A stretch of 64,000 nucleotides of DNA. Origin: an uncultured bacterium. GTDB taxonomy: Bacteria > Fidelibacterota > UBA2242. The stretch is from NCBI GenBank assembly GCA_964441235.1, contig CAYTUQ010000010.1, positions 11,549-75,548 on the forward strand, in the 5' to 3' direction. Made by a program: the position numbers and the translations under genes. Position 1 is the stretch's first letter. The number at the start of each line of letters is the position of its first letter. This document shows, one piece after another, positions 10,383 through 59,082 of this stretch. Under the pieces are notes generated by a model, which saw only the letters and a program-made list of their open reading frames with translations, did not search any database and was not told the DNA's origin.

Positions 10383-10447
10383 AACCCGTTTAGCCCTTCG
10401 GGCGCGTCAGGGACGTCTCTTTGAGAGAAACGGGTTTGAGTCGTAGA
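10383..10447 (+). repeat. Hairpin repeat copy 2
   Basis: Direct repeat of 10176-10248. A terminator-like hairpin (aaacctgttttcgcgatagccaaacaggtttttt) lies between the copies. Confidence 0.6.
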
Positions 10448-27396: not shown

Positions 27397-27798
27397 ATGA
27401 AAATGAAAAGATCTTTAGGAATAACGATAATTGGATGGTATTTCATCGTTCAGGGATGGATAGCACTCGGACAGTACGGTGATATTGGTAATTTTGCATT
27501 AGTTCTTGTAGCTTTATTTGTATGTATTGGCATCGGCTTGCTCAAACTATTTAACATTGCAAGAATTGCCGCTATACTTTTATTTGTTATTCTATCCTGT
27601 TATTCTTTATTTCTCACCATTAATTTATCAAGTCAATATTCAGACTCTATGATTGTAGGGAAAGCCATATCCATGCTTATATTTAGTACGGTGTTATTAA
27701 TTATATTCTTGTTTTTCTTTACAAGGCCTAATATTAAAAACCAATTCAAAGAAAAAAGTAGTTCAAAAAATAAAAATAATGGGTCTGTTAATTCATAA
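27397..27798 (+). CDS. Small integral membrane protein (4 TM)
   Basis: Hydrophobic helices with a K/S-rich tail. No family recognised. Confidence 0.45.
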   Translation: MKMKRSLGITIIGWYFIVQGWIALGQYGDIGNFALVLVALFVCIGIGLLKLFNIARIAAILLFVILSCYSLFLTINLSSQYSDSMIVGKAISMLIFSTVLLIIFLFFFTRPNIKNQFKEKSSSKNKNNGSVNS

Positions 27799-27824: not shown

Positions 27825-28014
27825 GATAAGCCGACCGCAGGCGGTCGGCTTATCGGCACGGGAGTTGTTGGCTCACTCCATGAAAGTCCGCCTGCGGCGG
27901 CCTATCAATGTCGTTCGAGCCGACCCCGCCTACGGCGGCTACGTCCTGTACTCGCATCTGAGAGAAATCCTTTCTCTCCTTGCTGCGTACAGGATGCGGC
28001 TCAACTCCCGTGCC
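27825..28014 (+). mobile_element. 190-bp GC-rich hairpin-ended miniature element, copy 1 (PATE / IS200-605-derived-like)
   Basis: Perfect 30-nt palindrome gataagccgaccgcaggcggtcggcttatc at one end, with ggcacgggagttg...caactcccgtgcc enclosing the rest. It is essentially identical to the inverted copy at 42620-42809 and much GC-richer than the host. The ORF called inside it is rejected. Confidence 0.65.
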
Positions 28015-28047
28015 GTTAGCACAATAAAATGAAGAGGCAGATATAAA

Positions 28048-28626
28048 TTGTCATTAGTATATCGAAATTATAAAAATCAGGAATTCTATCTTCATAAATC
28101 TTTAACAAAAAAAGGTAATCCCAAATATTACTTTTCTACTAAGAAAGAAGGAGAACTTGTTGATTATATTCCTGACGGATATGAAATATACGAAAATCCA
28201 AATGGGCAGGTTTTTTTAAGTAGAATACAACCAAAGCTTATTACTGATGATGAAAAGAGCATTGTTTTAAATGGAATGTACAAATATTCGGATGTAAATA
28301 TATTTAAAATTGATGTAAAGAGAGATATAATAAACATTTATACTCCTGATCAAGATATTGAAGAACTCTCAAAATTTATAGAGATGTCTCCCCTTAGAAG
28401 AAAAAATAGAGATAAAGATAACATAATTAATCAAGTAGTTCATTATTCACCTGTTTTACAATTTATATTAGTTGATAGTTCAATGAGGCATTTTATAACA
28501 AGAAGATATTGTTATTTAGGTTCAATAGATGATTGGATTGAGATCGGACAAATTGGAATACTATCAGATTTAGTGAAGAAATATGTAAAGCATATTGGTA
28601 AAGATTCATATTATGATTTAGATTAA
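28048..28626 (+). CDS. Hypothetical protein (192 aa)
   Basis: ORF with no recognisable motifs. It lies in an accessory region. Confidence 0.45.
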   Translation: MSLVYRNYKNQEFYLHKSLTKKGNPKYYFSTKKEGELVDYIPDGYEIYENPNGQVFLSRIQPKLITDDEKSIVLNGMYKYSDVNIFKIDVKRDIINIYTPDQDIEELSKFIEMSPLRRKNRDKDNIINQVVHYSPVLQFILVDSSMRHFITRRYCYLGSIDDWIEIGQIGILSDLVKKYVKHIGKDSYYDLD

Positions 28627-30704: not shown

Positions 30705-30906
30705 ATTTCAATTAGCATATCCTAACGAATCTTTTATAGAAAGTAAAGTCAAGAACATAATTCACCGTAACCCCTAGTTTTTAACTTTTAGGGCGCCATA
30801 AAGACGGTTGAAATTTTACTAATGTCGCACTGCCTGTTTTCATAGAGGATATTTCCAGTTTGAAAAACCATACTTATATAACAGGGATTTCTAACCGATC
30901 AGTTTT

Positions 30907-31031
30907 GCCTCAACGGAAGTCTCTGGTGAGACACCTGACGCCATATAAATAAAATAACGATAGCCGAGAAAATCTTTTATTCAGTGTCAGCGTGCACCAA
31001 AGGCGTCTCAATGTGACAAGCAGTGGTTGAA
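30907..31031 (+). repeat. attC-like ~125-bp direct repeat, copy 1
   Basis: Starts gcctcaacgg. It has internal imperfect palindromes (gagacac...gcgtctc; ctgacgcc...ggcgtcag), and similarity to copy 2 ends at ...caagcagNggttg. Confidence 0.45.
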
Positions 31032-31262: not shown

Positions 31263-31490
31263 ATGATACAAGTAAATATACACCATGCAAAGACTCACCT
31301 TTCAAGATTAATTCAAAAAGCAATTGAAGGTGAAGAAGTGGTTATAGCAAAAGGAAATAAACCGATAGTTAAATTAACGCAAATTCTAAATGTACCACAG
31401 ATTAGGAAACTGGGATCTGCTCAGGGGAAAATACATATATCTGATGATTTTAATGAGCCATTGGATGATTTTGCGGAGTATATGAATTGA
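31263..31490 (+). CDS. Phd/YefM-type antitoxin (VapB-like)
   Basis: MIQVNIHHAKTHLSRLIQKAIEGEEVVIAKGNKP. Overlaps the PIN gene start. Confidence 0.7.
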   Translation: MIQVNIHHAKTHLSRLIQKAIEGEEVVIAKGNKPIVKLTQILNVPQIRKLGSAQGKIHISDDFNEPLDDFAEYMN

Positions 31491-31873
31491 AGTATATAAT
31501 TGATACTCTTACACTACTTTGGATAGTTGATAATAATTCGCAATTGACTCGTACTGCTAAGGAAATATATCTCGATGAAAATAATGAAATATTATTAAGT
31601 ATCGCTAGTATATGGGAAATAGCAATAAAAATAAGTTTAAAGAAATTGATAATTCCATGTCGTTTATCGGATTTTGTAAAAGAACATATCATTGGAAATA
31701 ACATTCGGATTTTAAATATAGCATTGTCACATATATACCGACTGGAAACCTTAAAATATTACCATAGAGACCCTTTTGATCGTTTAATAATATCCCAATC
31801 TATTGAAGAAAATATCCCGATTATTAGTTCAGATAGTGAACTTGATAAATACGAAATAGATCGAGTTTGGTAA
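31487..31873 (+). CDS. VapC PIN-domain toxin
   Basis: IIDTLTLLW...SIASIWEIAIK...DPFDRLIISQSIEENIPIISSDSELDKY PIN motifs. Confidence 0.75.
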   Translation: MKYIIDTLTLLWIVDNNSQLTRTAKEIYLDENNEILLSIASIWEIAIKISLKKLIIPCRLSDFVKEHIIGNNIRILNIALSHIYRLETLKYYHRDPFDRLIISQSIEENIPIISSDSELDKYEIDRVW

Positions 31874-31901
31874 GCAAGTAATGTGCTAATGAATCTGCTT
31901 C

Positions 31902-32021
31902 GCCTCAACGGAAGTCTCTGGCGAGGCACCTGACGCCATATAAATAAAATAACGATAGCTGAAAATCTTTTATTCGGCGTCAGCGTGCACCAAAGGCGTC
32001 TCAATGTGACAAGCAGGGGTT
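31902..32021 (+). repeat. attC-like direct repeat, copy 2
   Basis: About 94% identical to 30907-31031 over ~120 nt. It brackets the Phd–VapC cassette. Confidence 0.45.
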
Positions 32022-32282
32022 GCCTGCCCGACGCAGGCGGGAACAAAGCCATCTATCTGGAATTTGCACGGCTTTGAGTTATGCTGATAATCAGTGGTGA
32101 ACAGGTAAAATATTCAGTTTATTGCAGCAATGTTAATCATAAACGTTGTTTTTTATCGGATATCTTGATGAAAACCGGTCCGATACCCAAGGAATACCGA
32201 ATTCTGCAAAAACTATTCTCATGCCGCAATTTGCGGCTTATAGCGACATATAGCGCTAATTTTTGTGAGTTACTTTGTAGGC

Positions 32283-32912
32283 TTAATCACCAAAAAGACC
32301 CAATTGATCCTTATTATTCTCTTTTTTCTTTTCGGCAATCTTCCTGTTAATTTCAGCTCTTCTTTTTTTTCTCTTTTTTATTTTTTCCTCCTCGATTCTT
32401 CTATTTTCATCAACGAATTCCTGTAATTCTCTGGCTTCTTCATCATCGGCAAATTCAATAATATATTTTTGATTGTCCACCATACTTTTGGGGATAATAA
32501 AACCTTCCGGCGTTTGATAAAAAGTAAAAGAATCAGATATTTCTTTACTACAATATCCTTCTTCGCCGATGCTCAGGTTACAGGCTTTTTCGATTTGAGT
32601 TGCTTTAGTGCCAATAGTTGACTTCTTTGTTCCAAAATATTTACAAAGCGAGTCAACAGTAATATAATTTTCATTTTGCTTATCAAATAAAAAATTCAGG
32701 CGAGCTATAACATAAATAATAGATGCGGCCCAAATTTCCTTTTTCCCTCGAATAATATTTATTATCCTTTTTCTACCGAGTTTCCCACATAACTTGATAG
32801 CATACCCTTCCAATTCAGGCGTCAAATACTCCTCACAAAAAGAATGTATCATTTCTTTAATTTTATCTACTCTTTCTGCTTTGTCATTTTTATCTTTTGA
32901 AAATTTATTCAT
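32283..32912 (-). CDS. Hypothetical protein with a K/R/E-rich C-terminal tail
   Basis: 209-aa ORF. No family recognised. Confidence 0.45.
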   Translation of the reverse strand: MNKFSKDKNDKAERVDKIKEMIHSFCEEYLTPELEGYAIKLCGKLGRKRIINIIRGKKEIWAASIIYVIARLNFLFDKQNENYITVDSLCKYFGTKKSTIGTKATQIEKACNLSIGEEGYCSKEISDSFTFYQTPEGFIIPKSMVDNQKYIIEFADDEEARELQEFVDENRRIEEEKIKKRKKRRAEINRKIAEKKKENNKDQLGLFGD

Positions 32913-32933
32913 ACTGATTTTATCACCTTTTAT

Positions 32934-33527
32934 CTAATCAGAAATATATTTATCAATTTCTTTCATAAATATCTCCTCTGTCCTTGCGCCGACCCATTTT
33001 TGACGTATAATACCTTTTTTATCAATAAGGAAAGTTGTAGGAATACCTCGAATGCCCCCATACTTAACTGTTAGATCTTTGAGATATTTTTCATCGCCTG
33101 TCAGGATTGTATAGTTTATAGAATTATTATTTACAAAGGATTGGATTTTTGCTGCATTACCTGAAGATAATGTAATACCGACAATTTCCAGTCCGTCTTT
33201 TTTGTGTTTATCATACATTTTAATAAAGTCCGGAATCTCGTAAAGACATGGACCGCACCATGATGCCCAAAAATTCAGAATTACGACTTTGTCTTTGAAT
33301 TGCTTAAGTGTTACTTCTTTGCCATCAAGAGTAATTAATGAAAAATCGGGTGCTATACTTCCGATAGAACCGGGAATTCGCATAATTTGTGATTGTTTGA
33401 CTTCGCCTGTATTTTTTCCACTGGTAGTGTTAGGTTTTTGCTCTTTTTGGGCACAGCCTACTCCAAAACTGATAAGCATAAAAGTTGAAAATAATATTAC
33501 CATTGTTACCGCACTTTTCAATTTCAT
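32934..33527 (-). CDS. TlpA/ResA-like thioredoxin-fold lipoprotein (thiol-disulfide oxidoreductase)
   Basis: Lipobox FGVGC. WCGPC active site in NFWASWCGPC. Confidence 0.8.
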   Translation of the reverse strand: MKLKSAVTMVILFSTFMLISFGVGCAQKEQKPNTTSGKNTGEVKQSQIMRIPGSIGSIAPDFSLITLDGKEVTLKQFKDKVVILNFWASWCGPCLYEIPDFIKMYDKHKKDGLEIVGITLSSGNAAKIQSFVNNNSINYTILTGDEKYLKDLTVKYGGIRGIPTTFLIDKKGIIRQKWVGARTEEIFMKEIDKYISD

Positions 33528-42221: not shown

Positions 42222-43623
42222 ATGATTATCAGAAATTCTTATTTAAAAAAAATCGAGCCTTTTATTGACAAGCCGCTGACAAAAGTCATTACAGGTATGC
42301 GGCGAACTGGGAAAAGTACATTTTTACAAATGCTCATACAGCAGATTCGTGAAAAAGGTGCTGTTGATAGTCAGATTCTCTGGATCAACAAGGAATTGGT
42401 AGAATTTGACTCTATTCGTAATTACCTTGATCTTTACCAGTATGTCAGGGATTATTTTAAGACAAAATCAAAAAATAACTATCTGTTTATTGACGAGGTA
42501 CAGGATATCGAAGACTGGGAAAAAGCAGTAGCTTCATTTTTAGCCAATCAAATGGCTGATATTTACATCACTGGTTCTAATGCACGTATATATTCTTCGG
42601 AGCTATCAACTCTGCTAGCGGCACGGGAGTTGAGCCGCATCCTGTACGCAGCAAGGAGAGAAAGGATTTCTCTCAGATGCGAGTACAGGACGTAGCCGCC
42701 GTAGGCGGGGTCGGCTCGAACGACATTGATAGGCCGCCGCAGGCGGACTTTCATGGAGTGAGCCAACAACTCCCGTGCCGATAAGCCGACCGCCTGCGGT
42801 CGGCTTATCGGGACGTTATATAGAAATTCCGATGTTTACTTTAAGTTTCAGCGAATTCCTCCAATTCAGAGAAAAGTCTTATACCGCTCTCAATACTGAT
42901 GATGAATTTAGCCTATTTCTGAAGTATGGTGGTTTTCCGGGAATCCACGCACTGGAGTTTGAAGATAAAACGGTTTTTCAATACCTTGACTCCCTCTACA
43001 ATACAATCTTAATTAAGGATGTTATCAGACGGCATAAGATTCGAGATGTTGGAGTCCTGGAGAACGTTGCTCGTTTCATCTTCGATAATTGCGGGAATGT
43101 TACGACGGCTAAGCGGATACCAGACTACCTTAAGAATAAGAAAATGAGAATTTCAACTGATACTGTACTTAATTATTTGTCTTATCTACGAAGTGCGTTT
43201 CTAATCCATAAAACCGGGCATTATGACCTGAAGGGATTAAGACACCTTGAATTTAACGATAAATATTACCTTGGTGATATCGGTCTGCGACATAGCATTT
43301 TAGGTTATAAAAACCGCGATATTTCCGGTCTTCTGGAGAATATTGTCTTCTTAGAACTACTGCGACGTGGCTATCGAATTTTTATCGGAAGACTTAATGG
43401 CAGAGAGATAGATTTCGTTGCTGAAAAGAGTGACGAACGAATTTATATACAGGTATGTTACCTGCTTGCAGACAGCAGTACGATCGAACGCGAATTCGTC
43501 CCACTCGAAAAGATAGAAGATAATTACCCCAAGATGGTGCTGTCCATGGATAAGATTTATATTCCTGATAGAAAGGGAATTATCAGGCAAAATCTGATCA
43601 AGTTTCTATTAAGTGAAAAATGA
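42222..43623 (+). pseudogene. AAA+ ATPase (AAA_14/DUF4143 family) interrupted by the 190-bp hairpin element
   Basis: Walker A GMRRTGKST and IYITGSNARIYSSELSTLLA| then the insertion, then |GRYIEIPMFTLSFSEF..., the canonical continuation. The insert is 190 bp, so the frame shifts by 1. Confidence 0.7.
42620..42809 (-). mobile_element. 190-bp GC-rich hairpin-ended miniature element, copy 2 (inverted)
   Basis: Reverse complement is identical to 27825-28014. Both copies share the flank motif g[ct]tagca next to the cccgtgcc end. Confidence 0.65.
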
Positions 43624-49357: not shown

Positions 49358-50314
49358 ATGAATCAAATGTTTTATCCTTTTCCCATAGAAGAAAGATATT
49401 ACCACTACAGCCGCTATCTTCGTGAGCGATTTAATTCACGAGTGTATAAAATATCTCTTGACGCGGGTTTTACTTGCCCAACCCGCAACGGCACTATTAG
49501 TTACGGTGGATGTCTGTACTGTAATAATAATAGTTTTGCACTGAAACGTAAAGAATCTATTCCACCTATTTCTCAACAAATAGCTGAAGGTATCGAGAGG
49601 CTAAAAAAATACCGGAAGGCAAAAAAGTTTCTGGCTTATTTTCAGGCATTTACAAATACTTACGCTCCCGTAGAGGAATTGGAAAAACTATACAATCTGG
49701 CTCTATCTTTTCCTGATATTGTGGGTTTGTGTATTGGAACCAGACCTGACTGTGTTGATGATAAGATATTCAAATTACTGCAAGATTTAAATAGAGAATC
49801 TTATGTATCGATAGAATTCGGGATAGAATCAGTTTACGATAAAACGCTGAACTGGATTAAGAGAGGACACGATTTTTCTAAAACAAAGTGGGCAGTTAAT
49901 AAAGCCAGGGAGTATGGATTACATACAGCCGGACACCTGATTTTTGGATTTCCGACAGAGTCATCGGAGGAAATACTTGAATCTGCGGAAACCATAAATA
50001 ACCTTGGAATAGATGCGATAAAAATCCATCATCTTCACATTGTAAAGAACACTCAATTGGCAAAACTATATAAAGAAAAACCGTTTCATGTTTTTAGTGA
50101 ATTAGAATGGATTACACTGGTTTGTGACTTCCTGGAGCGATTATGTCCCAGTATTAGTATTCAACGTCTTTGTGGTGAAGCAAAGCAGGGAACACTCATA
50201 GCACCTTTATGGAAGTTGAGTAAAAGTGAGGTTATTCAGGGAATACAAAGAGAATTGGAGAGGCGCGGGAGTTATCAGGGCTTTAATCTCAAAGGATTGA
50301 CCATTGACAATTGA
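49358..50314 (+). CDS. Radical SAM protein (TIGR01212-like)
   Basis: ISLDAGFTCPTRNGTISYGGCLYCNN Cys cluster. The start is uncertain: TTG at 49322 versus ATG at 49358. Confidence 0.7.
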   Translation: MNQMFYPFPIEERYYHYSRYLRERFNSRVYKISLDAGFTCPTRNGTISYGGCLYCNNNSFALKRKESIPPISQQIAEGIERLKKYRKAKKFLAYFQAFTNTYAPVEELEKLYNLALSFPDIVGLCIGTRPDCVDDKIFKLLQDLNRESYVSIEFGIESVYDKTLNWIKRGHDFSKTKWAVNKAREYGLHTAGHLIFGFPTESSEEILESAETINNLGIDAIKIHHLHIVKNTQLAKLYKEKPFHVFSELEWITLVCDFLERLCPSISIQRLCGEAKQGTLIAPLWKLSKSEVIQGIQRELERRGSYQGFNLKGLTIDN

Positions 50315-50340
50315 CCATTGACAATTGAAAATTGATAATT
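50288..50340 (+). repeat. Seven tandem heptamers ATTGAYM (attgacc attgaca attgacc attgaca attgaaa attgata attgag)
   Basis: They overlap the last codons of the radical SAM gene and extend past its stop. The units contain TTGACA. Confidence 0.6.
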
Positions 50341-50506
50341 GAGTAGGTGTAAAAATTAAATAAAATGGGTGTATTGGCTATGGTAAAGGTAGAAAAATAT
50401 ACTGTTCACGCCTTAGAAACCGGAAGATTCGTGCTTGACGATGCGTTTATTGCTACGAAAATAGATATTTCGATTGCAATTTTATTAAAATTTGTTTAGG
50501 AAAATT

Positions 50507-52255
50507 ATGGTACAAAAACTTAGTAATAAAGATGTTGCAATAATATTGAATGAAATTGGCACATTTTTAGAGCTTAAGGGAGATAATCCATTCAAAATCC
50601 GTGCATATTATAACGGTGCAAGAACAATTAGTAGAATATCGGTAGATTTGAAAAACCTTATAAAATCTGGAGAGCTTGAAAAAATTAAAGGAATTGGACA
50701 AGCATTAACCAAGAAGATAGAAAAATTAGTTACTACTGGCAGTCTCCAATATTACGAGGATTTAAAAGCCAGCATTCCTTCAGGTCTTAGAGATATTTTA
50801 CGGATACCGGGACTTGGGGCTAAGAAAGTTCGCAAGCTCTGGCAAGACCTCGATATAATAACACTTGGCGAACTTGAGTATGCCTGTAATGAAAACCGAC
50901 TTGTTACATTGGAGGGATTTGGTTTAAAAACTCAAGAGAAGGTTCTTGAAGGAATCAATTTTCTTAAAAAATATGCCAATAGATTCCTTCTCAATTATGC
51001 TCTCGATGAAGCGAACAAAATCGTTTCTATTCTTGAATCTCACCCGGAAGTGAAAAGAATCTCGGTAGCTGGCTCAGTGAGGAGAAAAAGAGAAATAATA
51101 AAAAATATTGATATAGTTGCTGATGTTGATTTAAAAGACCGCACCGAAGTTCTTCAATTCCTCTCTGAAAGCACTTATACAGATTCTACACTTTTCTCTA
51201 CAAAAGTTCCCTTAACAGTTAACCAAAATCATACGAGTATCAAATCAGAAATTGGAATGAATGTGGATATTTATTTTGCAAGTAGTGAAGAGTATCCTTT
51301 CATTTTTAGATACTATACCGGAAGCAAAGAGCACAATCAGGTATTACAAAAGTTTGCTGAAGAAGAGGGTTTTATCCTAACCGAAAAAAATCTTTTTCAT
51401 GGTAATGATGAAATTTTATGCTCCTTTGAAGAAGAAATTTATTCCACTCTGGGATTATCTTACATACCACCTGAGCTGAGGGAAAATGGTGATGAAATTG
51501 AACTTGCAGAAAAGAATCAGATTCGGGATTTAATTACCGAAAAAGATTTAAAGGGATGCTTCCACAATCATACGGTTTACAGCGATGGAAGTGCAACAAT
51601 CAGTGAAATGGTAAAAAAATCTCAGGAGTTGGGCTTTGAATATCTTGGTATTTCAGACCACAGTCAGAGCGCTTTCTACGCTAATGGTTTATCTATTGAG
51701 CGAATTCGGGAGCAGTGGCATGAGATTAATGAATTGAATGAAAAACTGGATAATTTTACAATTTTCGAGAGTGTAGAATCCGACATTCTTGTGGATGGAA
51801 GCCTTGACTATCCAGATGATATATTGAAAGAATTCGATTTTGTAGTTGCTTCAGTTCATTCACATTTTAAACTCTCTTTAGAGGAACAGACAGCTCGAAT
51901 TTTAAAGGCAATAAATCATCCTTCAGTAAAGATTTTGGGTCATCCTACCGGTAGACTGCTTCTTTCACGGGATAGTTATAAAGTGGATATGGAGAGACTG
52001 ATTCGTGAAGCTGCGAAATTAAATATTACTATTGAAATTAATTCAAATCCACATAGGCTTGATCTGGATTGGCGCTGGGGGAAACTTGCCAGAGAGGTTA
52101 ATCTGAAAGTTGCAATCAATCCTGATGCTCATAGTTTAAATGGACTTAATGACATTATTTACGGTGTATTTATAGCAAGAAAGGCTGGAATTCCGAAGGA
52201 AAATATTTTAAATACATGGACAGTAGATAAACTTATTGAGTTCTTTAAATCATGA
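50507..52255 (+). CDS. PolX-family DNA polymerase with C-terminal PHP domain
   Basis: HhH motifs, GSVRR, DIDIV, and PHP HNHTVYSDG...DHS. The ATG at 50507 with an agga RBS is preferred over the TTG at 50492. Confidence 0.85.
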   Translation: MVQKLSNKDVAIILNEIGTFLELKGDNPFKIRAYYNGARTISRISVDLKNLIKSGELEKIKGIGQALTKKIEKLVTTGSLQYYEDLKASIPSGLRDILRIPGLGAKKVRKLWQDLDIITLGELEYACNENRLVTLEGFGLKTQEKVLEGINFLKKYANRFLLNYALDEANKIVSILESHPEVKRISVAGSVRRKREIIKNIDIVADVDLKDRTEVLQFLSESTYTDSTLFSTKVPLTVNQNHTSIKSEIGMNVDIYFASSEEYPFIFRYYTGSKEHNQVLQKFAEEEGFILTEKNLFHGNDEILCSFEEEIYSTLGLSYIPPELRENGDEIELAEKNQIRDLITEKDLKGCFHNHTVYSDGSATISEMVKKSQELGFEYLGISDHSQSAFYANGLSIERIREQWHEINELNEKLDNFTIFESVESDILVDGSLDYPDDILKEFDFVVASVHSHFKLSLEEQTARILKAINHPSVKILGHPTGRLLLSRDSYKVDMERLIREAAKLNITIEINSNPHRLDLDWRWGKLAREVNLKVAINPDAHSLNGLNDIIYGVFIARKAGIPKENILNTWTVDKLIEFFKS

Positions 52256-52355
52256 TGGAAATTGTGTAAATTTTATTGGGAAAGTCTTGATTGAAGATTG
52301 ATAAAATGTGAAATTAGCTGAGTAGATGAAATGTAAAAAGTAGAAGAAAACTCTT

Positions 52356-53960
52356 ATGGAAAGTCTATTTGAATTAGAAAAAAGTGACCTACTGACTTTG
52401 AAAGAAGCAAGTTTATGGGCGACAGAATATTTGAAAAAAAATGTCACTGAATCAAATATTTCATATTTAACTAATTATGGTAGAATAAAGAAAATACAAA
52501 AAAATGGTAAAGTCCTAATTAGCAAGTCAGAATTAAGAAGATACTATAATTCGTTTTATGGAAAAAGAGAAATAAATTGGAAAAATCAATTAGGGAATGA
52601 TTTAGATTGGCATTTATCTTTTGATTACCTTAAGGAAGCAGATACAACAAAACATGTGCATAGACTTCACCCATATAAGGGTAAATTTATTCCACAGTTG
52701 GTAGAATATTTTCTTGATGACCATACCGATGAGTTTAAAAAAGAATCGTTTTTTAAAAAAGGCGATATTGTCCTCGATCCATTTTGCGGAAGCGGAACAA
52801 CATTGGTCCAAGCTAATGAATTAGGAATTCATGCATTAGGTATTGATGTTTCTGCTTTTAATGCCCTTATTGCTAATGTGAAGATTGGAAAATATGATTT
52901 TGCCGATTTATATAGTGAAATTAATAAAATTACTAATGCCCTAAAAAAGTTCAACGGAAGAAAAAATATTATTCAGTTTGGAACAGAGCTTGCAGAGGAG
53001 CTTGCTAAATTTAATGATCAATATTTCCCTTCACCTAATTTCAAATATAAGGTAAGAAATAAAGAAATAAATGAGAAAGAATATAGCGATAAAAAAGAAC
53101 ATGAATTTTTACATATATATTTTAATTTAGTCAAGAAATACAATGTTAAATTAAAACAAGAAACTTCCGATAACTTTTTAGATAAATGGTATTTAAAAAC
53201 AGTACGTGATGAGATTGACTTTGTTTTTAGTCTTGTAAAGAAAATTGAGAACATAAATACAAAAAAAGTAATAGGAATAATTCTAAGTAGGACTATTCGT
53301 TCATGTCGAGCTACTACACATGCAGATTTAGCTACTTTAAAGAAGCCAATATCAAAAACTTATTATTGTGCTAAACATGGTAAAATCTGCAAACCTTTGT
53401 TTTCAATGTTACGCTGGTGGGAACGATATAGTAAGGATACTATTGAAAGACTATCAAAATTCAATAATTTAAGGACCGGTACTTTTCAGTATTGTTTGAC
53501 CGGCGATTCAAGAACGATAGATATTTATGAAAAATTAGAAAAGAAAAGTTGTGATTTTGTAAATCTTATAAAGAAGCAGAAAATAAAGGGGATTTTTTCT
53601 AGCCCTCCGTATGTAGGTCTAATTGATTATCACGAGCAACACGCCTATGCCTATGAATTATTTGGGTTCAAAAGAAATGACGATTTAGAAATTGGGCCTC
53701 TATATAAAGGACGAGGTAGAGAAGCTCAGGAATCCTATATTCAAGGAATTTCAAAGGTCTTGAATAAATGCAAAAAATATTTAGTAAGGGACTATAATAT
53801 TCTTCTTGTTGCGAATGATAAATGCAACTTGTACCCAATTATAGCGGAAAAGGCGGGAATGAATATAGTAAATAAATATAAAAGACCTGTCTTGAATAGA
53901 ACAGAGAAAGACAAAGCTGCATATTCGGAGACTATTTTCCATCTAAAGGTAAAGGATTAG
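52356..53960 (+). CDS. DNA methyltransferase (amino-methyltransferase; motif I DPFCGSGTT, motif IV SPPY)
   Basis: HPYKGKFIPQLVEYFL...VLDPFCGSGTT and, ~270 aa later, FSSPPYVGLIDY. Confidence 0.8.
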   Translation: MESLFELEKSDLLTLKEASLWATEYLKKNVTESNISYLTNYGRIKKIQKNGKVLISKSELRRYYNSFYGKREINWKNQLGNDLDWHLSFDYLKEADTTKHVHRLHPYKGKFIPQLVEYFLDDHTDEFKKESFFKKGDIVLDPFCGSGTTLVQANELGIHALGIDVSAFNALIANVKIGKYDFADLYSEINKITNALKKFNGRKNIIQFGTELAEELAKFNDQYFPSPNFKYKVRNKEINEKEYSDKKEHEFLHIYFNLVKKYNVKLKQETSDNFLDKWYLKTVRDEIDFVFSLVKKIENINTKKVIGIILSRTIRSCRATTHADLATLKKPISKTYYCAKHGKICKPLFSMLRWWERYSKDTIERLSKFNNLRTGTFQYCLTGDSRTIDIYEKLEKKSCDFVNLIKKQKIKGIFSSPPYVGLIDYHEQHAYAYELFGFKRNDDLEIGPLYKGRGREAQESYIQGISKVLNKCKKYLVRDYNILLVANDKCNLYPIIAEKAGMNIVNKYKRPVLNRTEKDKAAYSETIFHLKVKD

Positions 53961-53962
53961 TA

Positions 53963-54739
53963 ATGGGACTTTCAAATTTACAATCAACATATATTGAAGA
54001 TGTAATCAAAAATTGTATTCGAGTAAAATTTAAAAAATACAGACCTGAGACTAGTAATATGCCATTTCATTATAGACTTCTTGGTAAGGATAGAATGGCT
54101 TTATACTCATTTATTCATTCTCTTAATACAAGTTTTGGTACTTCGATTTTTGAACCTGTTGCTATTGCACTTACCAAAGAGAAATTTAAAAATGCTGTAA
54201 AGCAAGCTTCTGTAGGACATCAGATTAGTGAAGAAGCACATATAGTTATTCAAAGAATATTAGATGGTTTGACAACTGGCAGAGAAGAGCCTAATAAGAG
54301 AAAAGAAATAGAAATGATTAGAGCGGTTTGTCGTTCGGGAAATATGAATGACGTTAAACCTGTAAAAGCTGATGTATTTTTGGAAGACTATAATGGGAAT
54401 AAATATTTATTTGATATTAAGACTGCAAAACCAAATATTGGAAATTTCAAAGAATTTAAAAGGTCTCTTCTTGAATAGGTTGCGATTGTATTAGCTCAAA
54501 ACCCGGAAACTAAAGTTATGACAGCAATTGCAATTCCGTATAATCCATATGAGCCAAAACCCTATGAAAGGTGGACAGTAAAAGGAATGCTTGATTTAAA
54601 TGAAGAGTTATTTGTCGCTGATGAATTTTGGGATTTTCTCGGTGGTGTTGGTGTATTTAATGAAATATTAGATTGTTTTGAAAGAGCTGGAATTGAGTTA
54701 CGTACAGAAATTGATCAATATTTTAAAAAATTTAGGTAA
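53963..54739 (+). pseudogene. Putative cognate restriction endonuclease interrupted by a single in-frame TAG (amber at 54476-54478)
   Basis: ORFs 53963..54478 and 54518..54739 are in the same frame, separated only by a TAG. It sits immediately 3' of the MTase. I did not recognise the family. Confidence 0.5.
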
Positions 54740-54750
54740 GACAAACAACT

Positions 54751-54939
54751 ATGAACGATAACAATAAAATAATCTATTCTATCAACATTGAAGATGTTCA
54801 AAAGGTAGCGAAACAGGAACTTGATAGAGAGCTGACAGATAAAGAGTTGAAATTAGTCGAGAACAAAATAGGTGATTACATAGACTGGTATGGCGCAATA
54901 GAGCTCTCAATTAATGATGCGATTCTTAATAAAAAATAA
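54751..54939 (+). CDS. Small hypothetical protein (62 aa)
   Basis: ORF only. Confidence 0.3.
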   Translation: MNDNNKIIYSINIEDVQKVAKQELDRELTDKELKLVENKIGDYIDWYGAIELSINDAILNKK

Positions 54940-54974
54940 TGCTGACTATTAAGTAATTATAAGGTATATGTCCA

Positions 54975-55140
54975 GCTAGAAGATATTTGCTCATAATCAT
55001 TTAAATATTTTACATCCTCTTGCCCCAAATATTGCAGTTCCAATTCTCACCATATTAGCGCCTTCTTCTATTGCAACTTTATACTAATTTGTCATTCCCA
55101 TTGACAGTGTTTTCATCTCAACACCTGGTAAGTTAAGAGT
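54975..55140 (-). pseudogene. Decayed duplicate of the yggS 3' end
   Basis: The minus translation [41 protein letters not shown] parallels the C-terminus of the 58387-59082 gene. About 85-90% nt identity, with an internal stop. Confidence 0.6.
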
Positions 55141-55249
55141 TTCAATTTATAAAAATCCTTTTACTTGATTTTTAATTATTTGTTCGATATATTCAAATGT
55201 TCGGTCAGACCGAACATTTGAATATATCGAACATTTTGGAGGAATCTGA

Positions 55250-56314
55250 ATGCAAAAAGAACATATCTTAGATGAGTGTATAGAGCAGCTTCGGCATTTG
55301 CCGCTGGTTAAAGGGGTGAAACAGATTGAAAAAAGTAATGTAAACGGAGAAAGACAATTTGACGTTTTTCTGGATGTTGATACAGAAATGGAGCATTTAC
55401 ATTTTGGTGTTGAAGTAAAAAGTATATTGAAAAGACCTATTCCTGATCACCTGTTTGTTCTAAAAAAGAAGAGTAAAGTGCCGATTCTTCTAATGGCTGA
55501 ATATATAAATGCGTCAATTGCTAACGATTTGAAGAGAAATCAAATATATTTTATTGATTCTCTAGGAAATGCTTATATCCATATCCTGGGGTCAATTTAT
55601 ACGGATATTCAGGGTAAGAAACCGGAAAAGCGAAGAGAAAAGCGGACAACAGCACTGTTTCAGCCTAAAGGCATGCAACTACTTTTTATATTACTTACCG
55701 ATAAAGAGGCTGTAAATGATACTATACGTACCTTAGCTAAGAAAGCAAATATATCCAATGATCGAGCCTTTGCAGTAATGAATGAGCTGAAAGAGAAAGG
55801 ATTTATCTTGGAAACTGGCAAGAGAGAGAACCGACTTATCAATATAAAATCCTTACTTGAGAAGTGGCTGATAAATTATGGTGATCGGCTGAGACCCAAA
55901 CTATTTCTGGGAGCCTACAAAGTGAGTCCAGTATTAATTGACAGTTTAGAAGATGAATTGAATGTTGCCTTTGGTGAACAGGTAAAAACATACGCCTTTG
56001 GGGGTAGTATCGGTGCCGATATTTTAACGGATTATTATCGTGGTTCGAGCGCCGAAATATTTATTAAGCCGGATATATTGGAAAAGGTGAGAATGACTCT
56101 TAAATTGCTTCCTGCCCGGGAGACTAACCTGACCTTATTTAATCTTTTTTCCCCTAAATTGATTTACGGTAAAGTAAAAATAAATTACCCTGTCGTTCAT
56201 CCTTTATTTATTTATGCTGAACTTTTATACAACGGTGGCGGTAGGGAGATAAATACTGCTAAACGTATATACAACGAATATCTAAAGCAGGATTTTGATG
56301 GATCTGAAGCCTGA
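55250..56314 (+). CDS. Hypothetical protein: N-terminal PD-(D/E)xK-like motif and a central winged-helix
   Basis: FDVFLDVD...GVEVKS fits D-x(n)-ExK. The central ...DTIRTLAKKANISNDRAFAVMNELKEKGFI is wHTH-like. It overlaps the next gene by 20 nt. Confidence 0.45.
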   Translation: MQKEHILDECIEQLRHLPLVKGVKQIEKSNVNGERQFDVFLDVDTEMEHLHFGVEVKSILKRPIPDHLFVLKKKSKVPILLMAEYINASIANDLKRNQIYFIDSLGNAYIHILGSIYTDIQGKKPEKRREKRTTALFQPKGMQLLFILLTDKEAVNDTIRTLAKKANISNDRAFAVMNELKEKGFILETGKRENRLINIKSLLEKWLINYGDRLRPKLFLGAYKVSPVLIDSLEDELNVAFGEQVKTYAFGGSIGADILTDYYRGSSAEIFIKPDILEKVRMTLKLLPARETNLTLFNLFSPKLIYGKVKINYPVVHPLFIYAELLYNGGGREINTAKRIYNEYLKQDFDGSEA

Positions 56315-57101
56315 AATTGGTCAAGTGATTAAAATCTTAGATGATTACTTTAAGAAAAATAACATCTCTTTTGTGCTTATCGGGGCATTAGTTCCGTTAT
56401 TCATGATAGATTTTAAAGAGAAGAATGGTGTTGGCTATGGTATTAGACCTACGTACGATATTGACTACTCTGCTCTGGTAAATAGTTGGAGCGAATATAG
56501 GCGTATTAAACAGGAATTGATTGCAAGAGGTTTTAAGGCAAAGAAAAGTGAGCCGGAGCATCGTTTATTTTTTAATGATGTAGCAGTTGATATAATCCCA
56601 TATGGGGATAATTTGCTTGAACATAATATACTGGTTTGGCCTAAATCTGGACATCAAATGAATATGGTAGGCTTTGATATCGTTTTCCAGCATGCTCAGC
56701 AACTGAAAGTCAGCGAAACCCTAACAATTTCGACGATTCCTATATTTTTATCTGTTTATACAAAGATGATCGCACTTTTGGATAGGCATTCGCAGAACGA
56801 TTTGATGGATATTTTTTATATGCTCAATCATTATGAAGAAGTAAGTGTAAGCAATCGGCGATTTGATCTATTTGAGATTGAAGGTATCTATTATGAAAAT
56901 AGTGGAGCGTACTTGGTAGGAGTGGATTTGAAGAAGGTGCTTTCACCACAAATGTTCAAGAGTATTCTGGGTTTCTTTAATTTCATCGATGATCCTGATA
57001 ATACTATTTTATACGAAATTGCAAGAAAATCAAATCAGAAGCCCTTAGAACTCATTGACTTAATTATGGCATTCAAGAAAGGTCTTGGTATCGAATTGTG
57101 A
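56295..57101 (+). CDS. Nucleotidyltransferase-fold protein (AbiEii/DUF1814-like?)
   Basis: VLIGALV...(22 aa)...YDIDYS fits the hG[GS]...DhDh pol-beta NTase signature. It is overlap-coupled to the upstream wHTH protein. Confidence 0.4.
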   Translation: MMDLKPEIGQVIKILDDYFKKNNISFVLIGALVPLFMIDFKEKNGVGYGIRPTYDIDYSALVNSWSEYRRIKQELIARGFKAKKSEPEHRLFFNDVAVDIIPYGDNLLEHNILVWPKSGHQMNMVGFDIVFQHAQQLKVSETLTISTIPIFLSVYTKMIALLDRHSQNDLMDIFYMLNHYEEVSVSNRRFDLFEIEGIYYENSGAYLVGVDLKKVLSPQMFKSILGFFNFIDDPDNTILYEIARKSNQKPLELIDLIMAFKKGLGIEL

Positions 57102-57145
57102 CCTATTTTTGTAATACTTCCAGTATTTAAAGAGAAATAAAAACA

Positions 57146-57175
57146 AAATCCTACAGGGAGGATTTATATTTTATA
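57146..57175. terminator. Bidirectional hairpin terminator between convergent genes
   Basis: aaatcct-acaggg-aggattt is a 7-bp stem followed by tatatttt. Confidence 0.45.
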
Positions 57176-58375
57176 AGCATCAATATCCCGCATAAATAGG
57201 CTCAAGATAGTACCTATACCGAAGAGGATGGCGATTAGAACCATATTGAATCCTAATATAAGTATGATTCCCCCAATTTGTCCTATAAGCATTAATACAC
57301 CATTTGACGTTGCCTCAGGCACAGGATAGGTGATTTCAGCGGCGTATGTCAGCCCAATTGGTAATGCGGATACTAATAGAAACCCGTATAAAAATGAGAT
57401 AATGCAGAGAGGAATAAAATAGGGAATGTATGCTAATAGTAATGTTAGAGGCACTCCGGATCCTACAGCAATACTTAAAAAGATACGGCGTTTGTGATAT
57501 TTATCCGAAAGAGCAGATAGAATAACAGCTCCCAATATTCCTCCAAAAACCAGTAATCCTCCGATTATTCCTGAAGCCTGAACCTCAAGAGATGGCGGAA
57601 TATCAATAACACGAGTAGTATCAAACACCAGATCAATTTCAGAGCTAATCGCATTAAAAGCACCTATCCCAAAGAATAATAAAATAAAAAGGAAGATAAA
57701 ATCACGGTTCTTGAAGATATCTTTTAATCCTTCCACCATTAATGTTTTGCTTTTTAACCAATAAGCATTAGGTGCTTCAGCCGGTTTATCTTTGACGAAT
57801 ATTATATATAGAGCCATAAATATCAACGATACAATACCATAGATAAGGAGTGCTGTGTGGATATTATAAGTATCAAAAAGAAATGGAGTTGCTACCATAC
57901 CAATGATTGCGCCGAGTAGTATAGACATGGTTCCTAAACCCGTAGCAAGAGTTTTTTCTTTTTCCGGAAACCAATTTGTAGCCAGTTTCGTAAAGGAGTT
58001 CAAAACGAAGGGCTGACCAATTGCACATCCTGTTTGACAGATGAGGATCAGTGTATAATTTGGAGAAAATGAACGAAGGAGACCAAAAAGCCCGGTGAGA
58101 ATTACACCAATACCTGTACCCCATTTCAGACCGTATTTATCAATACACCAGCATGCCGGGAAATTGACAGGGATATAAGCGATCATAAAAACCATGGCAA
58201 GCATAATTATTGCATTCGTGCTTACTCCATATTGAGTGGCTACTTCAGTTGTAATAGGTGCGAATGTAATCCAGATTATCTGAGTCATAAGTCCTACTAA
58301 CATAAAAAGTACCAGTACAACCCACCTATAAGAAGAAACCTGATAAGAAGATGAATGTTTTTCGGTATTTGTCAT
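57164..58375 (-). CDS. MFS transporter
   Basis: Twelve predicted TM helices and MFS-like loop motifs. Confidence 0.75.
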   Translation of the reverse strand: MTNTEKHSSSYQVSSYRWVVLVLFMLVGLMTQIIWITFAPITTEVATQYGVSTNAIIMLAMVFMIAYIPVNFPACWCIDKYGLKWGTGIGVILTGLFGLLRSFSPNYTLILICQTGCAIGQPFVLNSFTKLATNWFPEKEKTLATGLGTMSILLGAIIGMVATPFLFDTYNIHTALLIYGIVSLIFMALYIIFVKDKPAEAPNAYWLKSKTLMVEGLKDIFKNRDFIFLFILLFFGIGAFNAISSEIDLVFDTTRVIDIPPSLEVQASGIIGGLLVFGGILGAVILSALSDKYHKRRIFLSIAVGSGVPLTLLLAYIPYFIPLCIISFLYGFLLVSALPIGLTYAAEITYPVPEATSNGVLMLIGQIGGIILILGFNMVLIAILFGIGTILSLFMRDIDAYKI

Positions 58376-58386
58376 ATTTTATACTC

Positions 58387-59082
58387 CTATAATTTACATT
58401 TTCTCGGCCCGAATATTGCCGTTCCTATTCTCACCATATTAGCGCCTTCCTCTATGGCAACTTTATATGAATTTGTCATTCCCATTGAAAGAGTTTTCAT
58501 CTCGACACCCGGCAAATTAAGTCCTCTAATTTTTCTGGAAAATCCTCTCACCTTTCGGAAATAAGGCCTACTCTGTTCAGGATCTCCTCCAATCGGTCCG
58601 ATTGTCATCAATCCTTCCAATCTTAGATGTTCAAGTTCCGAAATGCTTTTAGCCAATTTCTCTATGATTTTGTAATCTGGTTTAATACCTGATTTTGAAA
58701 TTTCGCTGCCTATATTTATTTCAATATAAATAGGAATCACTTTTTTCTCGGCATGCTCAACTCTTTTATCGATAGCTTGTGCCATTTCCAAAGAATCAAC
58801 AGTCTGAATAATATCGAAAATTTTTAGTGCTTTATTTATTTTGTTTGTTTGCAGATGACCAATCATGTGCTACCTGACTTTTTCTCTTTCTTTGAACAGA
58901 GTATTGCAGATTTTTTCTCCCTCCTGAACATAATTTTCGCCAATATCTGTAGCACCTGCTTTTATAACCTCTATTACTTCGTTAGTGGTTCTCTGTTTTG
59001 CTGCCACGACAATTGTTACGTATTCAGGGATTGATTCTCTAATTTTTTGATAATTTTCTGTAATAGACATTTTTATCCCCAT
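58387..59082 (-). pseudogene. yggS: YggS-family PLP-binding protein with an in-frame TAG at the conserved Trp (…KEREKVR*HMIGHLQTNK)
   Basis: ORFs 58870..59082 and 58387..58866 are the same frame, separated by one TAG (complement of 58870-58872). The homologous E. coli block is LEWHFIGPLQSNK. Confidence 0.7.

What the first reader, a model, noticed from the sequence alone, without database searches (positions are those of the whole stretch)
54975..59082. yggS carries an amber at its conserved Trp, and a decayed copy of its 3' end lies 3.4 kb away, bracketing an NTase/MFS island
The yggS frame is continuous except for TAG where family members have Trp (R*HMIGHLQTNK versus E. coli LEWHFIGPLQSNK). 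This is a TGG→TAG change. A 165-bp diverged copy of the gene's last ~50 codons sits at 54975-55140. Between that copy and the gene lie the wHTH/NTase pair and an MFS transporter. This is the same bracketed-by-gene-end pattern as at the MMPL locus. This is the second in-frame TAG within 5 kb (see the REase). I considered amber suppression or recoding, but many genes here end in TAG, including the overlapped ABC gene pair at 7383-7390.
Basis: seen in the sequence. Interest (0 to 1): 0.55.

Follow-up and report, generated by a model that had tools for sequence, protein, structure and literature searches.

The report
Nonsense-mutated yggS beside an old insertion scar
In one uncultured marine-sediment bacterium (Neomarinimicrobiota), the vitamin-B6 homeostasis gene yggS and a nearby restriction enzyme gene each carry an ordinary Trp-to-stop mutation, and the extra copy of the yggS tail is the scar of an old recombination that inserted a transporter and a toxin-antitoxin pair; none of this needs a new mechanism.

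Summary
yggS (minus strand, 59070-58387) has one in-frame TAG at 58870-58872. Forty homologues, E. coli YggS and five sister loci have Trp (TGG) at that codon. A second copy of the yggS 3' end lies at about 54998-55166 (86.5% identity over 133 nt).

The TAG is not a sequencing error. The split products occur on 12-13 contigs from several samples, and the W-restored sequences are absent from the 15-billion-protein collection. The nearby HinfI/TdeIII-like restriction enzyme is also TGG->TAG (54476-54478), as shown by a 96%-identical orthologue.

TAG is otherwise a normal stop here: it ends 12 of 56 ORFs, including yggS itself in five lineages. Recoding is therefore unlikely.

The two yggS tails are reciprocal chimeras. 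One relative (L001, no island) has the yggS-type 5' part and the remnant-type 3' part. Another (L171) has the mirror pattern, and its MFS gene is 95% identical although its core genes are only 71-79% identical. This indicates one homologous crossover (58411-58450 / 55027-55066) that inserted MFS plus an AbiE-like pair. No integrase is present. The scar is old, since three lineages share it.

Verdict: ordinary pseudogenisation plus a known type of island scar. Interest is low.

The parts
58387..59082 (-). yggS (YggS/COG0325 PLP homeostasis protein) carrying a nonsense allele. The likely true start is the ATG at 59070 (MSITENY..., as in all relatives).
   Evidence: TIGR00044 scores 165.5 bits against a cut-off of 106.25 with W restored. 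Pfam Ala_racemase_N. E. coli YggS 1W8G E = 3e-31. Translation.
58870..58872 (-). In-frame TAG (codon 67 of the 227-codon gene) replacing the invariant Trp. It is a TGG->TAG change. An ATG (Met69, ancestral) follows 3 nt later.
   Evidence: Identical in L081-L086. The 66-aa and 159-aa products are on 12 contigs, and the W-restored protein is absent.
58389..58552 (-). Repeat copy 1: the current yggS 3' end. 5' of the crossover it is of the resident (L001-like) type. 3' of the crossover it is of the incoming (L171-like) type, ending ...GPRKCKL-TAG, followed 11 nt later by the MFS start.
58411..58450 (-). Inferred crossover interval in yggS. Its counterpart in the remnant is 55027-55066.
   Evidence: Switch of the L001 and L171 site patterns between alignment columns 115 and 154.
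57164..58375 (-). MFS transporter gene (403 aa), probably co-transcribed with yggS. It is 95% nt identical to the MFS gene of L171, whose core genes are only 71-79% identical.
   Evidence: Pfam MFS_1 E = 7.6e-40..
56295..57101 (+). NTase-like gene (268 aa) overlapping the end of the AbiEi gene by 20 nt. It is the putative toxin of an AbiE-like pair.
   Evidence: PADLOC PDC-M21B E = 1.9e-9 and AbiEii E = 0.0027. No Pfam or NCBIfam hit.
55250..56314 (+). AbiEi_2-domain wHTH regulator / antitoxin gene (354 aa).
   Evidence: Pfam PF09952 scores 56.7 bits against a cut-off of 21.
55181..55233 (.). Perfect 26+1+26 nt palindrome, 16 nt upstream of the AbiEi start and next to the 5' edge of the remnant. 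It is the probable AbiEi operator (inferred).
   Evidence: Also present in L170. AbiEi binding to promoter inverted repeats is described in PMC7319586.
54998..55166 (-). Repeat copy 2: the displaced yggS 3' remnant. Its 5' part is L171-like (IETLN). Its 3' part is L001-like (...[12 protein letters not shown]). It carries its own TAG at 55084-55086, from TCG.
54934..54997 (-). Native downstream flank of the resident yggS. It is collinear with the sequence that follows yggS in L001.
   Evidence: L001 10562-10764 aligns to window 55137-54934 at 85.9%.
53963..54739 (+). HinfI/TdeIII-family type II restriction endonuclease gene, split 171 + 73 aa by an in-frame TAG at 54476-54478 (TGG->TAG).
   Evidence: PF09520 hits on both halves. 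PADLOC REase_II E = 2e-18 on the fused protein. The L169 orthologue reads SLLEWVAIV with TGG.
52356..53960 (+). Cognate type II DNA methyltransferase, intact. Together with the REase and orf62 (54751-54939) it forms a block that is absent from L001 and L167.
   Evidence: PADLOC MTase_II E = 6.8e-246. Synteny.

Best explanation
Two separate and ordinary things lie side by side.

A. Nonsense mutations. In one clonal population of a Neomarinimicrobiota (Marinimicrobia) bacterium, yggS took a G->A change that turned the invariant Trp67 codon TGG into TAG. The HinfI/TdeIII-like restriction endonuclease 4.4 kb away took the same kind of change. Both are loss-of-function alleles that became fixed. 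The full-length proteins are no longer made. At most, a 66-aa N-fragment carrying the PLP lysine and a 159-aa C-fragment are produced.

B. An old insertion scar.
- Shown: the second copy of the yggS 3' end is a recombination scar.
- Inferred: a DNA segment from a more distant relative (L171-like) carried about 170 bp of that relative's yggS 3' end, the adjacent MFS gene and an AbiE-like toxin-antitoxin pair. It recombined once, by homology, with the resident yggS tail. The crossover lay within 58411-58450 / 55027-55066.
- Inferred: a Campbell-type single crossover of a circularised fragment fits best. Homology-facilitated illegitimate recombination is the close alternative.
- Result: yggS received a new tail joined to MFS. 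The resident tail, now fused to the 5' end of the incoming fragment, was displaced 3.4 kb downstream, where it has been decaying.
- Shown: no integrase is present.
- Shown: the event predates the split of at least three lineages, and the module has since been exchanged among them by homologous recombination.
- Inferred: the same two repeats can delete the module again, which would recreate the L001-type state.
For: TAG is real and fixed:
- yggS is 100% identical, TAG included, in six contigs from four JGI samples and two SRA runs. A seventh sample carries the REase TAG.
- The split products are on 12-13 contigs. The W-restored sequences are absent from the 15-billion-protein collection.

TGG is ancestral:
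- For yggS, in L001, L167, L169, L170 and L171. W67 is invariant in 40 homologues and aligns with the E. coli Trp.
- For the REase, in L169.

TAG is a normal stop:
- It ends 12 of 56 ORFs, including a complete AhpC domain protein.
- It is the conserved natural stop of yggS in five lineages.
- Normal TAG stops are followed by another in-frame stop within 0-21 codons.
- Only two genes in the 64 kb are interrupted.

Possible relaxed constraint:
- Changes unique to the window branch of yggS are 3 synonymous to 7 non-synonymous. Other branches show about 1:1. This is weak evidence.

Insertion scar:
- L001 lacks MFS and the AbiE pair, and its yggS runs into the remnant's flank.
- At 37 sites that separate the two copy types, L001 reads yggS-type and then remnant-type. 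L171 reads the mirror image.
- Window-to-L171 identity jumps from 65-88% in yggS to 95-98% from about 58410 onward.
- 4-fold-site divergence between the window and L167 is 0.39 for yggS and 0.19 for the MBL-fold gene, but 0.14 for MFS and 0.06 for the NTase gene.
- The remnant is present in L167, L168 and L170 in different states of decay: an intact 54-aa ORF, a frameshift, and in the window a TAG.
- None of the Pfam hits listed for the called genes of the 21-kb locus L081 around the island is an integrase or transposase family.
Against: - Both interrupted genes of the window are Trp->amber. From codon counts, a random transition-type nonsense change is TGG->TAG about 17% of the time, so two of two is about 0.03. 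This is post hoc, but it is what a Trp-inserting amber suppressor would also predict.
- Apart from the TAG, yggS looks intact, and an ATG follows 3 nt after the stop, so reinitiation and a two-piece protein cannot be excluded.
- No read-level data were available, and the rest of the genome could not be searched for tRNAs.
- The direction of the event cannot be proven. L001 could be an empty site or an excision product. L171 could be the donor, or a recipient of MFS.
- L169 has MFS but no AbiE pair and no remnant. Explaining it needs an extra deletion or an independent event.
Confidence: 0.8

Rival explanations
1. UAG is read through in this organism. The reader could be a suppressor tRNA inserting Trp, pyrrolysine, or a TAG=Gln type code. 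Under this reading both genes still give full-length proteins.
For: Both in-frame TAGs sit at invariant Trp codons in otherwise intact genes, and both are fixed on 12-13 contigs. One gene caller translated the REase TAG as Q (P0128).
Against: - P0128 is an artefact. Its contig is 100% identical to the window and carries TAG.
- TAG ends 12 of 56 ORFs, including a complete AhpC domain protein and yggS itself in five lineages.
- Only two in-frame TAGs occur in 64 kb, and both are one transition away from the ancestral TGG.
- No tRNA gene was found in the window, or in L081, which extends about 4.4 kb past the window's end, or in the related loci.
- A literature search returned no paper reporting recoding in Marinimicrobia.
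Confidence: 0.04
2. yggS still works as a two-piece protein. Translation stops at the UAG and restarts at the AUG 3 nt downstream (UAG CAC AUG, with AGG 6 nt upstream). The 66-aa and 159-aa fragments then assemble into the TIM barrel.
For: The stop-start spacing can be read directly from the sequence. Both fragments are open. The rest of the gene shows no frameshift or second stop. MFS, which lies downstream and is probably co-transcribed, is intact.
Against: - Met69 is ancestral, being invariant in 40 homologues, so nothing has been adapted for reinitiation.
- The cut removes the invariant Trp67.
- The window branch has an excess of non-synonymous changes, including a Thr at codon 29 where all eight close relatives aligned have Pro.
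- There is no evidence that the fragments assemble.
- yggS null mutants have been isolated and studied in Salmonella enterica, E. coli and Acidovorax citrulli (papers listed: PMC11619424, PMC10202323, PMC8787154), so simple loss is plausible.
Confidence: 0.06
3. The TAG is a sequencing, assembly or consensus artefact, or a minority variant.
For: No reads were inspected. All contigs may come from one study site and one sequencing platform.
Against: The sequence is identical in independent assemblies of at least five samples made by two assembly pipelines (JGI and Logan). Twelve to thirteen contigs carry the split products and none carries the restored ones.
Confidence: 0.02
4. The island is, or was, an integrase-driven integrative element that targets the 3' end of yggS. 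Under this reading the repeats are attL and attR.
For: Direct repeats of a gene's 3' end flanking accessory and defence genes are the classic signature of such elements (own knowledge). L001 shows a clean empty site.
Against: - No recombinase gene lies in or next to the island in the window. None of the Pfam hits listed for the called genes of L167, L168 and L170 is a recombinase family.
- The repeats are about 135-170 nt of diverged homologous coding sequence with a reciprocal-chimera pattern. They are not a short identical core.
- The module's left boundary differs between lineages, as expected for homologous exchange.
Confidence: 0.08

Closest known systems
Displaced ('orphan') gene 3' ends left by homology-anchored insertion, as in Rhs/CDI toxin loci and Vibrio cholerae T6SS effector-immunity arrays (PMC5361080)
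   Same: An incoming module is anchored by homology to the conserved part of a resident gene. It supplies a new 3' end plus new downstream genes. The old 3' end is pushed downstream, where it persists as a remnant.
   Different: - The anchor here is a housekeeping gene (yggS), not a polymorphic toxin gene.
- The new tail encodes almost the same protein, so nothing is diversified.
- The remnant's 5' part comes from the incoming DNA (a reciprocal chimera). That fits a circular single-crossover intermediate better than the linear homology-facilitated illegitimate recombination proposed for those loci.
Campbell-type integration of a circular DNA by a single homologous crossover (own knowledge: suicide-plasmid integration, RecA-dependent integration of plasmids and excised circles)
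   Same: It duplicates the homologous segment as direct repeats that flank the insert. The two copies are reciprocal recombinants of the two parents. It is reversible by recombination between the repeats.
   Different: No replicon or circular form was observed. The circle is inferred only from the sequence pattern.
AbiE type IV toxin-antitoxin / abortive infection system (PMC3985639, PMC7319586)
   Same: A bicistronic, overlapping pair with the AbiEi_2 regulator gene first and an NTase-like gene second. An inverted repeat lies just upstream. The pair sits in a variable defence locus next to a restriction-modification system.
   Different: The second gene does not reach Pfam or NCBIfam thresholds for AbiEii/DUF1814. 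Its best match is the PADLOC candidate family PDC-M21B. No function was tested.
Nonsense-inactivated restriction endonuclease next to an intact methyltransferase (own knowledge: a common decay state of type II R-M systems)
   Same: The REase is split by one stop codon while the MTase is intact and matches its PADLOC model end to end.
   Different: Nothing notable, except that the stop is again Trp->amber.

Membership tests
YggS / COG0325 PLP homeostasis protein (TIGR00044) | Score above the curated family cut-off | tested here: met
   165.5 bits against a cut-off of 106.25 with W restored. E. coli YggS 1W8G E = 3e-31.
YggS / COG0325 PLP homeostasis protein (TIGR00044) | PLP-binding lysine and the WH(F/M)IG.LQ.NK motif | tested here: not met
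   Lys25 is present and invariant. The Trp of the motif is replaced by a stop codon. The locus is therefore a yggS gene but not an intact member.
AbiE type IV toxin-antitoxin | AbiEi antitoxin domain | tested here: met
   PF09952 AbiEi_2 scores 56.7 bits against a cut-off of 21.
AbiE type IV toxin-antitoxin | AbiEii / DUF1814 nucleotidyltransferase toxin | tested here: inconclusive
   PADLOC AbiEii E = 0.0027. PDC-M21B E = 1.9e-9. No Pfam or NCBIfam hit at E <= 0.01.
AbiE type IV toxin-antitoxin | Bicistronic operon with an inverted-repeat operator upstream of abiEi | tested here: met
   The genes overlap at 56295-56314. A perfect 26-nt-arm palindrome lies at 55181-55233. Binding was not tested.
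Integrase-mediated integrative island at a gene 3' end | Tyrosine or serine recombinase gene in the element | tested here: not met
   None of the Pfam hits listed for the called genes between yggS and the radical-SAM gene is an integrase family, in the window population (L081), L167, L168 or L170.
Integrase-mediated integrative island at a gene 3' end | Direct repeats of the target 3' end at both borders, and an empty site in a relative | tested here: met
Single homologous crossover (Campbell-type) insertion | The two repeat copies are reciprocal chimeras of two parental alleles, and both parents are observed | tested here: met
   L001 site pattern Y...Y then R...R. L171 site pattern R...R then Y...Y. 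The crossover maps to 58411-58450 / 55027-55066.
Stop-codon recoding (TAG as a sense codon, pyrrolysine, natural amber suppression) | TAG avoided as a terminator, or in-frame TAGs in many genes | tested here: not met
   TAG ends 12 of 56 ORFs. Only two genes carry an in-frame TAG.
Stop-codon recoding (TAG as a sense codon, pyrrolysine, natural amber suppression) | tRNA with anticodon CUA (plus pylS/BCD for pyrrolysine) | not testable with these tools
   No tRNA at all was found in the window, in L081 (about 4.4 kb beyond it) or in the relatives' loci. The rest of the genome could not be reached.
Type II restriction-modification system (HinfI/TdeIII-like) | REase and MTase genes adjacent and both intact | tested here: not met
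   The MTase is intact (PADLOC MTase_II E = 6.8e-246). The REase matches PF09520 and REase_II but is split by TAG.

The most novel reading that the evidence does not exclude
This Neomarinimicrobiota population carries a Trp-inserting amber suppressor, or some other efficient UAG read-through. That would let TGG->TAG changes at invariant Trp codons be tolerated and fixed in otherwise intact genes (yggS and the REase). A milder variant is that yggS survives as a two-piece protein through termination-reinitiation at UAG-CAC-AUG.
Probability: 0.05. Interest if true: 0.65.

Novelty: new member of a known kind. Interest (0 to 1): 0.2.

Why it matters
The main value is as a worked example.
- The extra gene tail is not junk. 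Its site pattern records a single homologous crossover, so both parental alleles, the crossover interval and the direction of module flow can be read from metagenome contigs alone.
- The region downstream of yggS in this clade is a hot spot where defence modules are swapped without any integrase: the AbiE-like pair, a HinfI-like restriction-modification system or an NmeDI-like restriction enzyme gene, and an MFS gene.
- For annotation, yggS and the REase should be flagged as pseudogenes, not as four small genes.
- A gene caller that silently switched to a TAG=Gln code on a short contig produced a false full-length protein (P0128). That is a caution for anyone mining such protein collections for recoding.
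- If the unlikely suppressor reading were true, it would be a natural amber suppressor in an uncultured phylum.

Tried and rejected
It returned nothing closer than 69% and missed even the window's own population, so it gave no TGG variants or empty sites. Close relatives came instead from the protein search plus exact-sequence look-ups.

2. P0128 looked like a full-length REase identical to the window's but with Gln at the TAG position, as if it were a TAG->CAG revertant. Its contig is 100% identical to the window and carries TAG. It is a translation-table artefact.

3. AhpC (33527-32934) and DUF6398 (32912-32283) lie in the same frame, separated by a TAG. They were checked as a possible third in-frame TAG. 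The AhpC domain is complete and the two families are unrelated, so they are treated as two genes and the TAG as a true stop.

4. An APOBEC-like or deaminase mutation cluster was considered as the cause of two TGG->TAG changes. The two changes are on opposite strands, and the other window-specific substitutions in yggS show no G->A excess. The idea was dropped.

5. Reaching the part of the 80-kb contig that lies upstream of the window, to look for tRNAs, failed. The first ORF's product is not on record.

6. The idea that the remnant is kept by selection (it is an intact 54-aa ORF in L167) was rejected. L170's copy is frameshifted and the window's has a stop.

7. MFS-AbiE as one indivisible island was rejected. 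L169 has MFS without the AbiE pair or the remnant.

Full report
**1. What is in the sequence**

The minus strand from 59082 (more likely from the ATG at 59070, where all relatives start with MSITENY) to 58387 is one continuous YggS reading frame. It is broken by a single TAG...EKVR*HMIGHLQTNK. The stop codon occupies 58870-58872.

With Trp restored, the protein passes the curated YggS model: TIGR00044 scores 165.5 bits against a cut-off of 106.25. It also aligns to E. coli YggS (PDB 1W8G, E = 3e-31). In that alignment the TAG position falls on the Trp of gleWHfIGpLQsNK, and Lys25 falls on the PLP lysine. In an alignment of 40 homologues of 64-70% identity, W67 and K25 are invariant.

A second copy of the gene's tail lies 3.4 kb away.
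- 55005-55137 aligns without gaps to 58389-58521 at 86.5% over 133 nt, E = 4e-41.
- It is the longest direct repeat in the 64-kb window.
- It translates to [45 protein letters not shown].

Between the two copies lie three genes:
- an AbiEi_2 regulator gene (55250-56314; Pfam 56.7 bits, cut-off 21);
- an overlapping NTase-like gene (56295-57101; PADLOC PDC-M21B E = 1.9e-9, AbiEii E = 0.0027);
- an MFS transporter gene (57164-58375, minus strand), which starts 11 nt after the yggS stop.

**2. Whose genome, and is the TAG real?**

The closest species-representative genome is a Candidatus Neomarinimicrobiota MAG from the Black Sea (L001, JADHYC010000005.1; yggS 88.6% nt identity).

The identical locus was found in four JGI metagenomes (3300031379, 3300031351, 3300031368, 3300031864) and two Logan assemblies (SRR9705735, SRR9700529). 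In all six, yggS is 100% identical, TAG included.

An exact-sequence look-up shows the four split products (66 and 159 aa from yggS; 171 and 73 aa from the REase) on 12-13 contigs each, the longest 80,072 bp. The same proteins with Trp restored are not in the 15-billion-protein collection. A sequencing or assembly error is therefore very unlikely.

**3. The TAGs are TGG->TAG**

Five related loci have TGG at the yggS codon: L001, L167/L168, L169, L170 and L171. For example, L001 reads AGG TGG CAT where the window reads AGG TAG CAC.

The restriction endonuclease at 53963-54739 (Pfam HinfI; NCBI calls its relatives the TdeIII family) is split at 54476-54478. Its 96%-identical orthologue in L169 (GCA_003645835.1) reads SLLEWVAIV with TGG at the same place. 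So the second in-frame TAG is again Trp->amber.

The TAG inside the remnant (55084-55086) is one change away from TCG, the codon found in L170's remnant and in L171's yggS.

**4. Recoding is unlikely**

- TAG terminates 12 of 56 ORFs of at least 100 aa.
- One of these ORFs is an AhpC protein whose domain is complete.
- yggS itself ends in TAG at the same position in five lineages, followed by the MFS ribosome-binding site.
- Normal TAG stops are followed by another in-frame stop within 0-21 codons.
- A scan for stops with at least 50 open codons on each side finds only the yggS and REase cases in real genes.
- No tRNA gene is present in the window, in L081 (which reaches about 4.4 kb past the window's end), or in the relatives' loci.
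- A literature search turned up no report of recoding in Marinimicrobia.

One database protein (P0128) looked like the window's REase with Gln at the TAG position. Its contig is base-for-base identical to the window and carries TAG. The Q therefore comes from a gene caller using a TAG=Gln table.

One residual oddity remains: both disrupted genes are Trp->amber. From the window's codon counts, a transition-type nonsense change is TGG->TAG about 17% of the time, so two of two is about 0.03. This is post hoc. I keep a Trp-inserting suppressor as a 4-5% possibility that only the full genome or proteomics can close.

**5. Is yggS dead?**

The stop removes an invariant residue. It also separates the PLP lysine (in the 66-aa N-fragment) from the rest of the barrel.

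Changes unique to the window's branch of yggS are 3 synonymous to 7 non-synonymous. They include P29T, at a codon where the eight close relatives aligned all have Pro. Other branches show roughly 1:1. This is suggestive of relaxed constraint, but the numbers are too small to prove it.

yggS null mutants have been isolated and studied in Salmonella enterica, E. coli and Acidovorax citrulli (papers listed: PMC11619424, PMC10202323, PMC8787154). Loss is therefore plausible.

An ATG (ancestral Met69) follows the stop by 3 nt, so a two-piece protein made by reinitiation cannot be excluded. Nothing supports it either.

**6. What the duplicated tail is**

L001 has no MFS and no AbiE pair. Its yggS ends ...GVRGCKIFK, and it continues into the same flank that follows the window's remnant: L001 10562-10764 aligns to window 55137-54934.

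L167/L168 (JGI) and L170 (ENA) have an intact yggS followed by MFS, the NTase gene, the AbiEi gene and the remnant, collinear with the window over 5.3 kb at about 90-93% identity. The scar therefore predates the split of these lineages. Their remnants differ in state: an intact 54-aa ORF in L167, a frameshift in L170, and a stop in the window. That is slow neutral decay, not conservation.

The decisive test used 37 sites at which the current yggS tails (window, L167, L169, L170) differ from the remnants (window, L167, L170).
- L001 is yggS-type through the 5' part and remnant-type at all 13 sites in the 3' part.
- L171, a distant relative, is the mirror image: remnant-type in the 5' part and yggS-type at the last 12 sites.

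The two copies are thus the two reciprocal products of one homologous crossover between an L001-type resident allele and an L171-type allele. The crossover falls in the nearly invariant stretch 58411-58450 / 55027-55066. The remnant's 5' edge (about 55166) marks the end of the incoming yggS fragment. It abuts a perfect 53-nt palindrome (55181-55233) just upstream of the AbiEi gene. That palindrome is probably the AbiEi operator, by analogy with PMC7319586.

**7. The module has moved laterally**

- L171's core genes are 71-79% identical to the window. Its MFS gene is 94.8% identical, and the jump occurs at about 58410-58470, in the yggS tail.
- Between the window and L167, 4-fold-site divergence is 0.39 in yggS and 0.19 in the upstream MBL-fold gene. 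It is 0.14 in MFS and 0.06 in the NTase gene.
- No integrase or transposase family appears among the Pfam hits of the genes called in the 21-kb locus around the island.

The best-fitting mechanism is integration of a circularised fragment (yggS tail, MFS, NTase gene, AbiEi gene) by a single RecA-type crossover. The module then spread among lineages by ordinary homologous recombination. Homology-facilitated illegitimate recombination, as proposed for orphan 3' ends in Rhs and T6SS loci (PMC5361080), is the close alternative.

The direction cannot be proven. L001 could be the never-inserted state, or the product of deletion between the repeats.

L169, the window's nearest relative at this locus, has yggS, MFS, orf63 and an intact REase, with no AbiE pair and no remnant. 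It needs an additional deletion or a separate exchange, which I could not resolve.

**8. Context**

Downstream of the remnant, the window has orf62, the split REase and an intact MTase (52356-54939). L167 and L170 carry an NmeDI-like REase there instead. L001 has neither, and it also lacks the window's PolX gene. The stretch between yggS and the radical-SAM/hisS genes is therefore a variable defence locus in this clade.

**9. Verdict**

The finding combines two ordinary Trp->amber pseudogenes, fixed in a clonal population, with an old and unusually legible single-crossover insertion scar. It is a new instance of known phenomena, and its interest is low (0.2). The only reading that would raise the interest is natural amber suppression, or a functional split YggS. 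I put that at about 5%.

Noticed in passing
window 27825-28021 and 42613-42809: A 197-nt inverted repeat, 99% complementary, with arms 14.6 kb apart. It could bound an invertible or recently duplicated segment. One arm lies in the open stretch between the ORFs 27397-27798 and 28048-28626.
   Followed up: no
window 30891-31029 and 31886-32022: A direct repeat of about 140 nt (88-95% identity) spaced about 994 nt apart, flanking the ORF 31487-31873. Its nature is unknown.
   Followed up: no
window 10169-10233 and 10382-10446: A 65-nt direct repeat (91% identity) containing a GC-rich hairpin-like core, in the intergenic DNA after 9649-10167.
   Followed up: no
L172 (Logan SRR8556701_210926), equal to window 53612-55114: The protein collection holds a 258-aa 'full-length' REase (P0128) with Gln at the TAG codon. 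The DNA has TAG, so the gene caller used a TAG=Gln table on this short contig. This is a trap for recoding surveys.
   Followed up: yes
window 32283-33527 (minus strand): The AhpC/TSA gene ends in TAG, and the next gene (DUF6398) follows in the same frame after 21 nt. I treated them as two genes because the AhpC domain is complete. I did not check whether fused homologues exist.
   Followed up: partly
window 50287-52199 versus L001 10891-13045: The PolX/PHP gene of the window has no counterpart in L001, where about 2.1 kb of unrelated DNA sits. Only the last ~128 nt (52199-52326) align. This is a further variable segment next to the RM block.
   Followed up: no
L170 3417-3840; L167 12757-13833: The AbiEi gene is truncated in L170 (213 aa, with about 240 nt missing relative to the window). 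Its N-terminal half is only 67-82% identical between the window and L167, while the NTase gene is 96% identical. The antitoxin's DNA-binding half and its operator seem to evolve much faster than the toxin.
   Followed up: partly
window 54788-54939 (orf62 3' end): Three different recombination breakpoints fall inside or at the end of the small orf62: 54934 versus L001, 54892 versus L169, and 54788 versus L167/L170. As a result its C-terminus is mosaic between lineages.
   Followed up: partly
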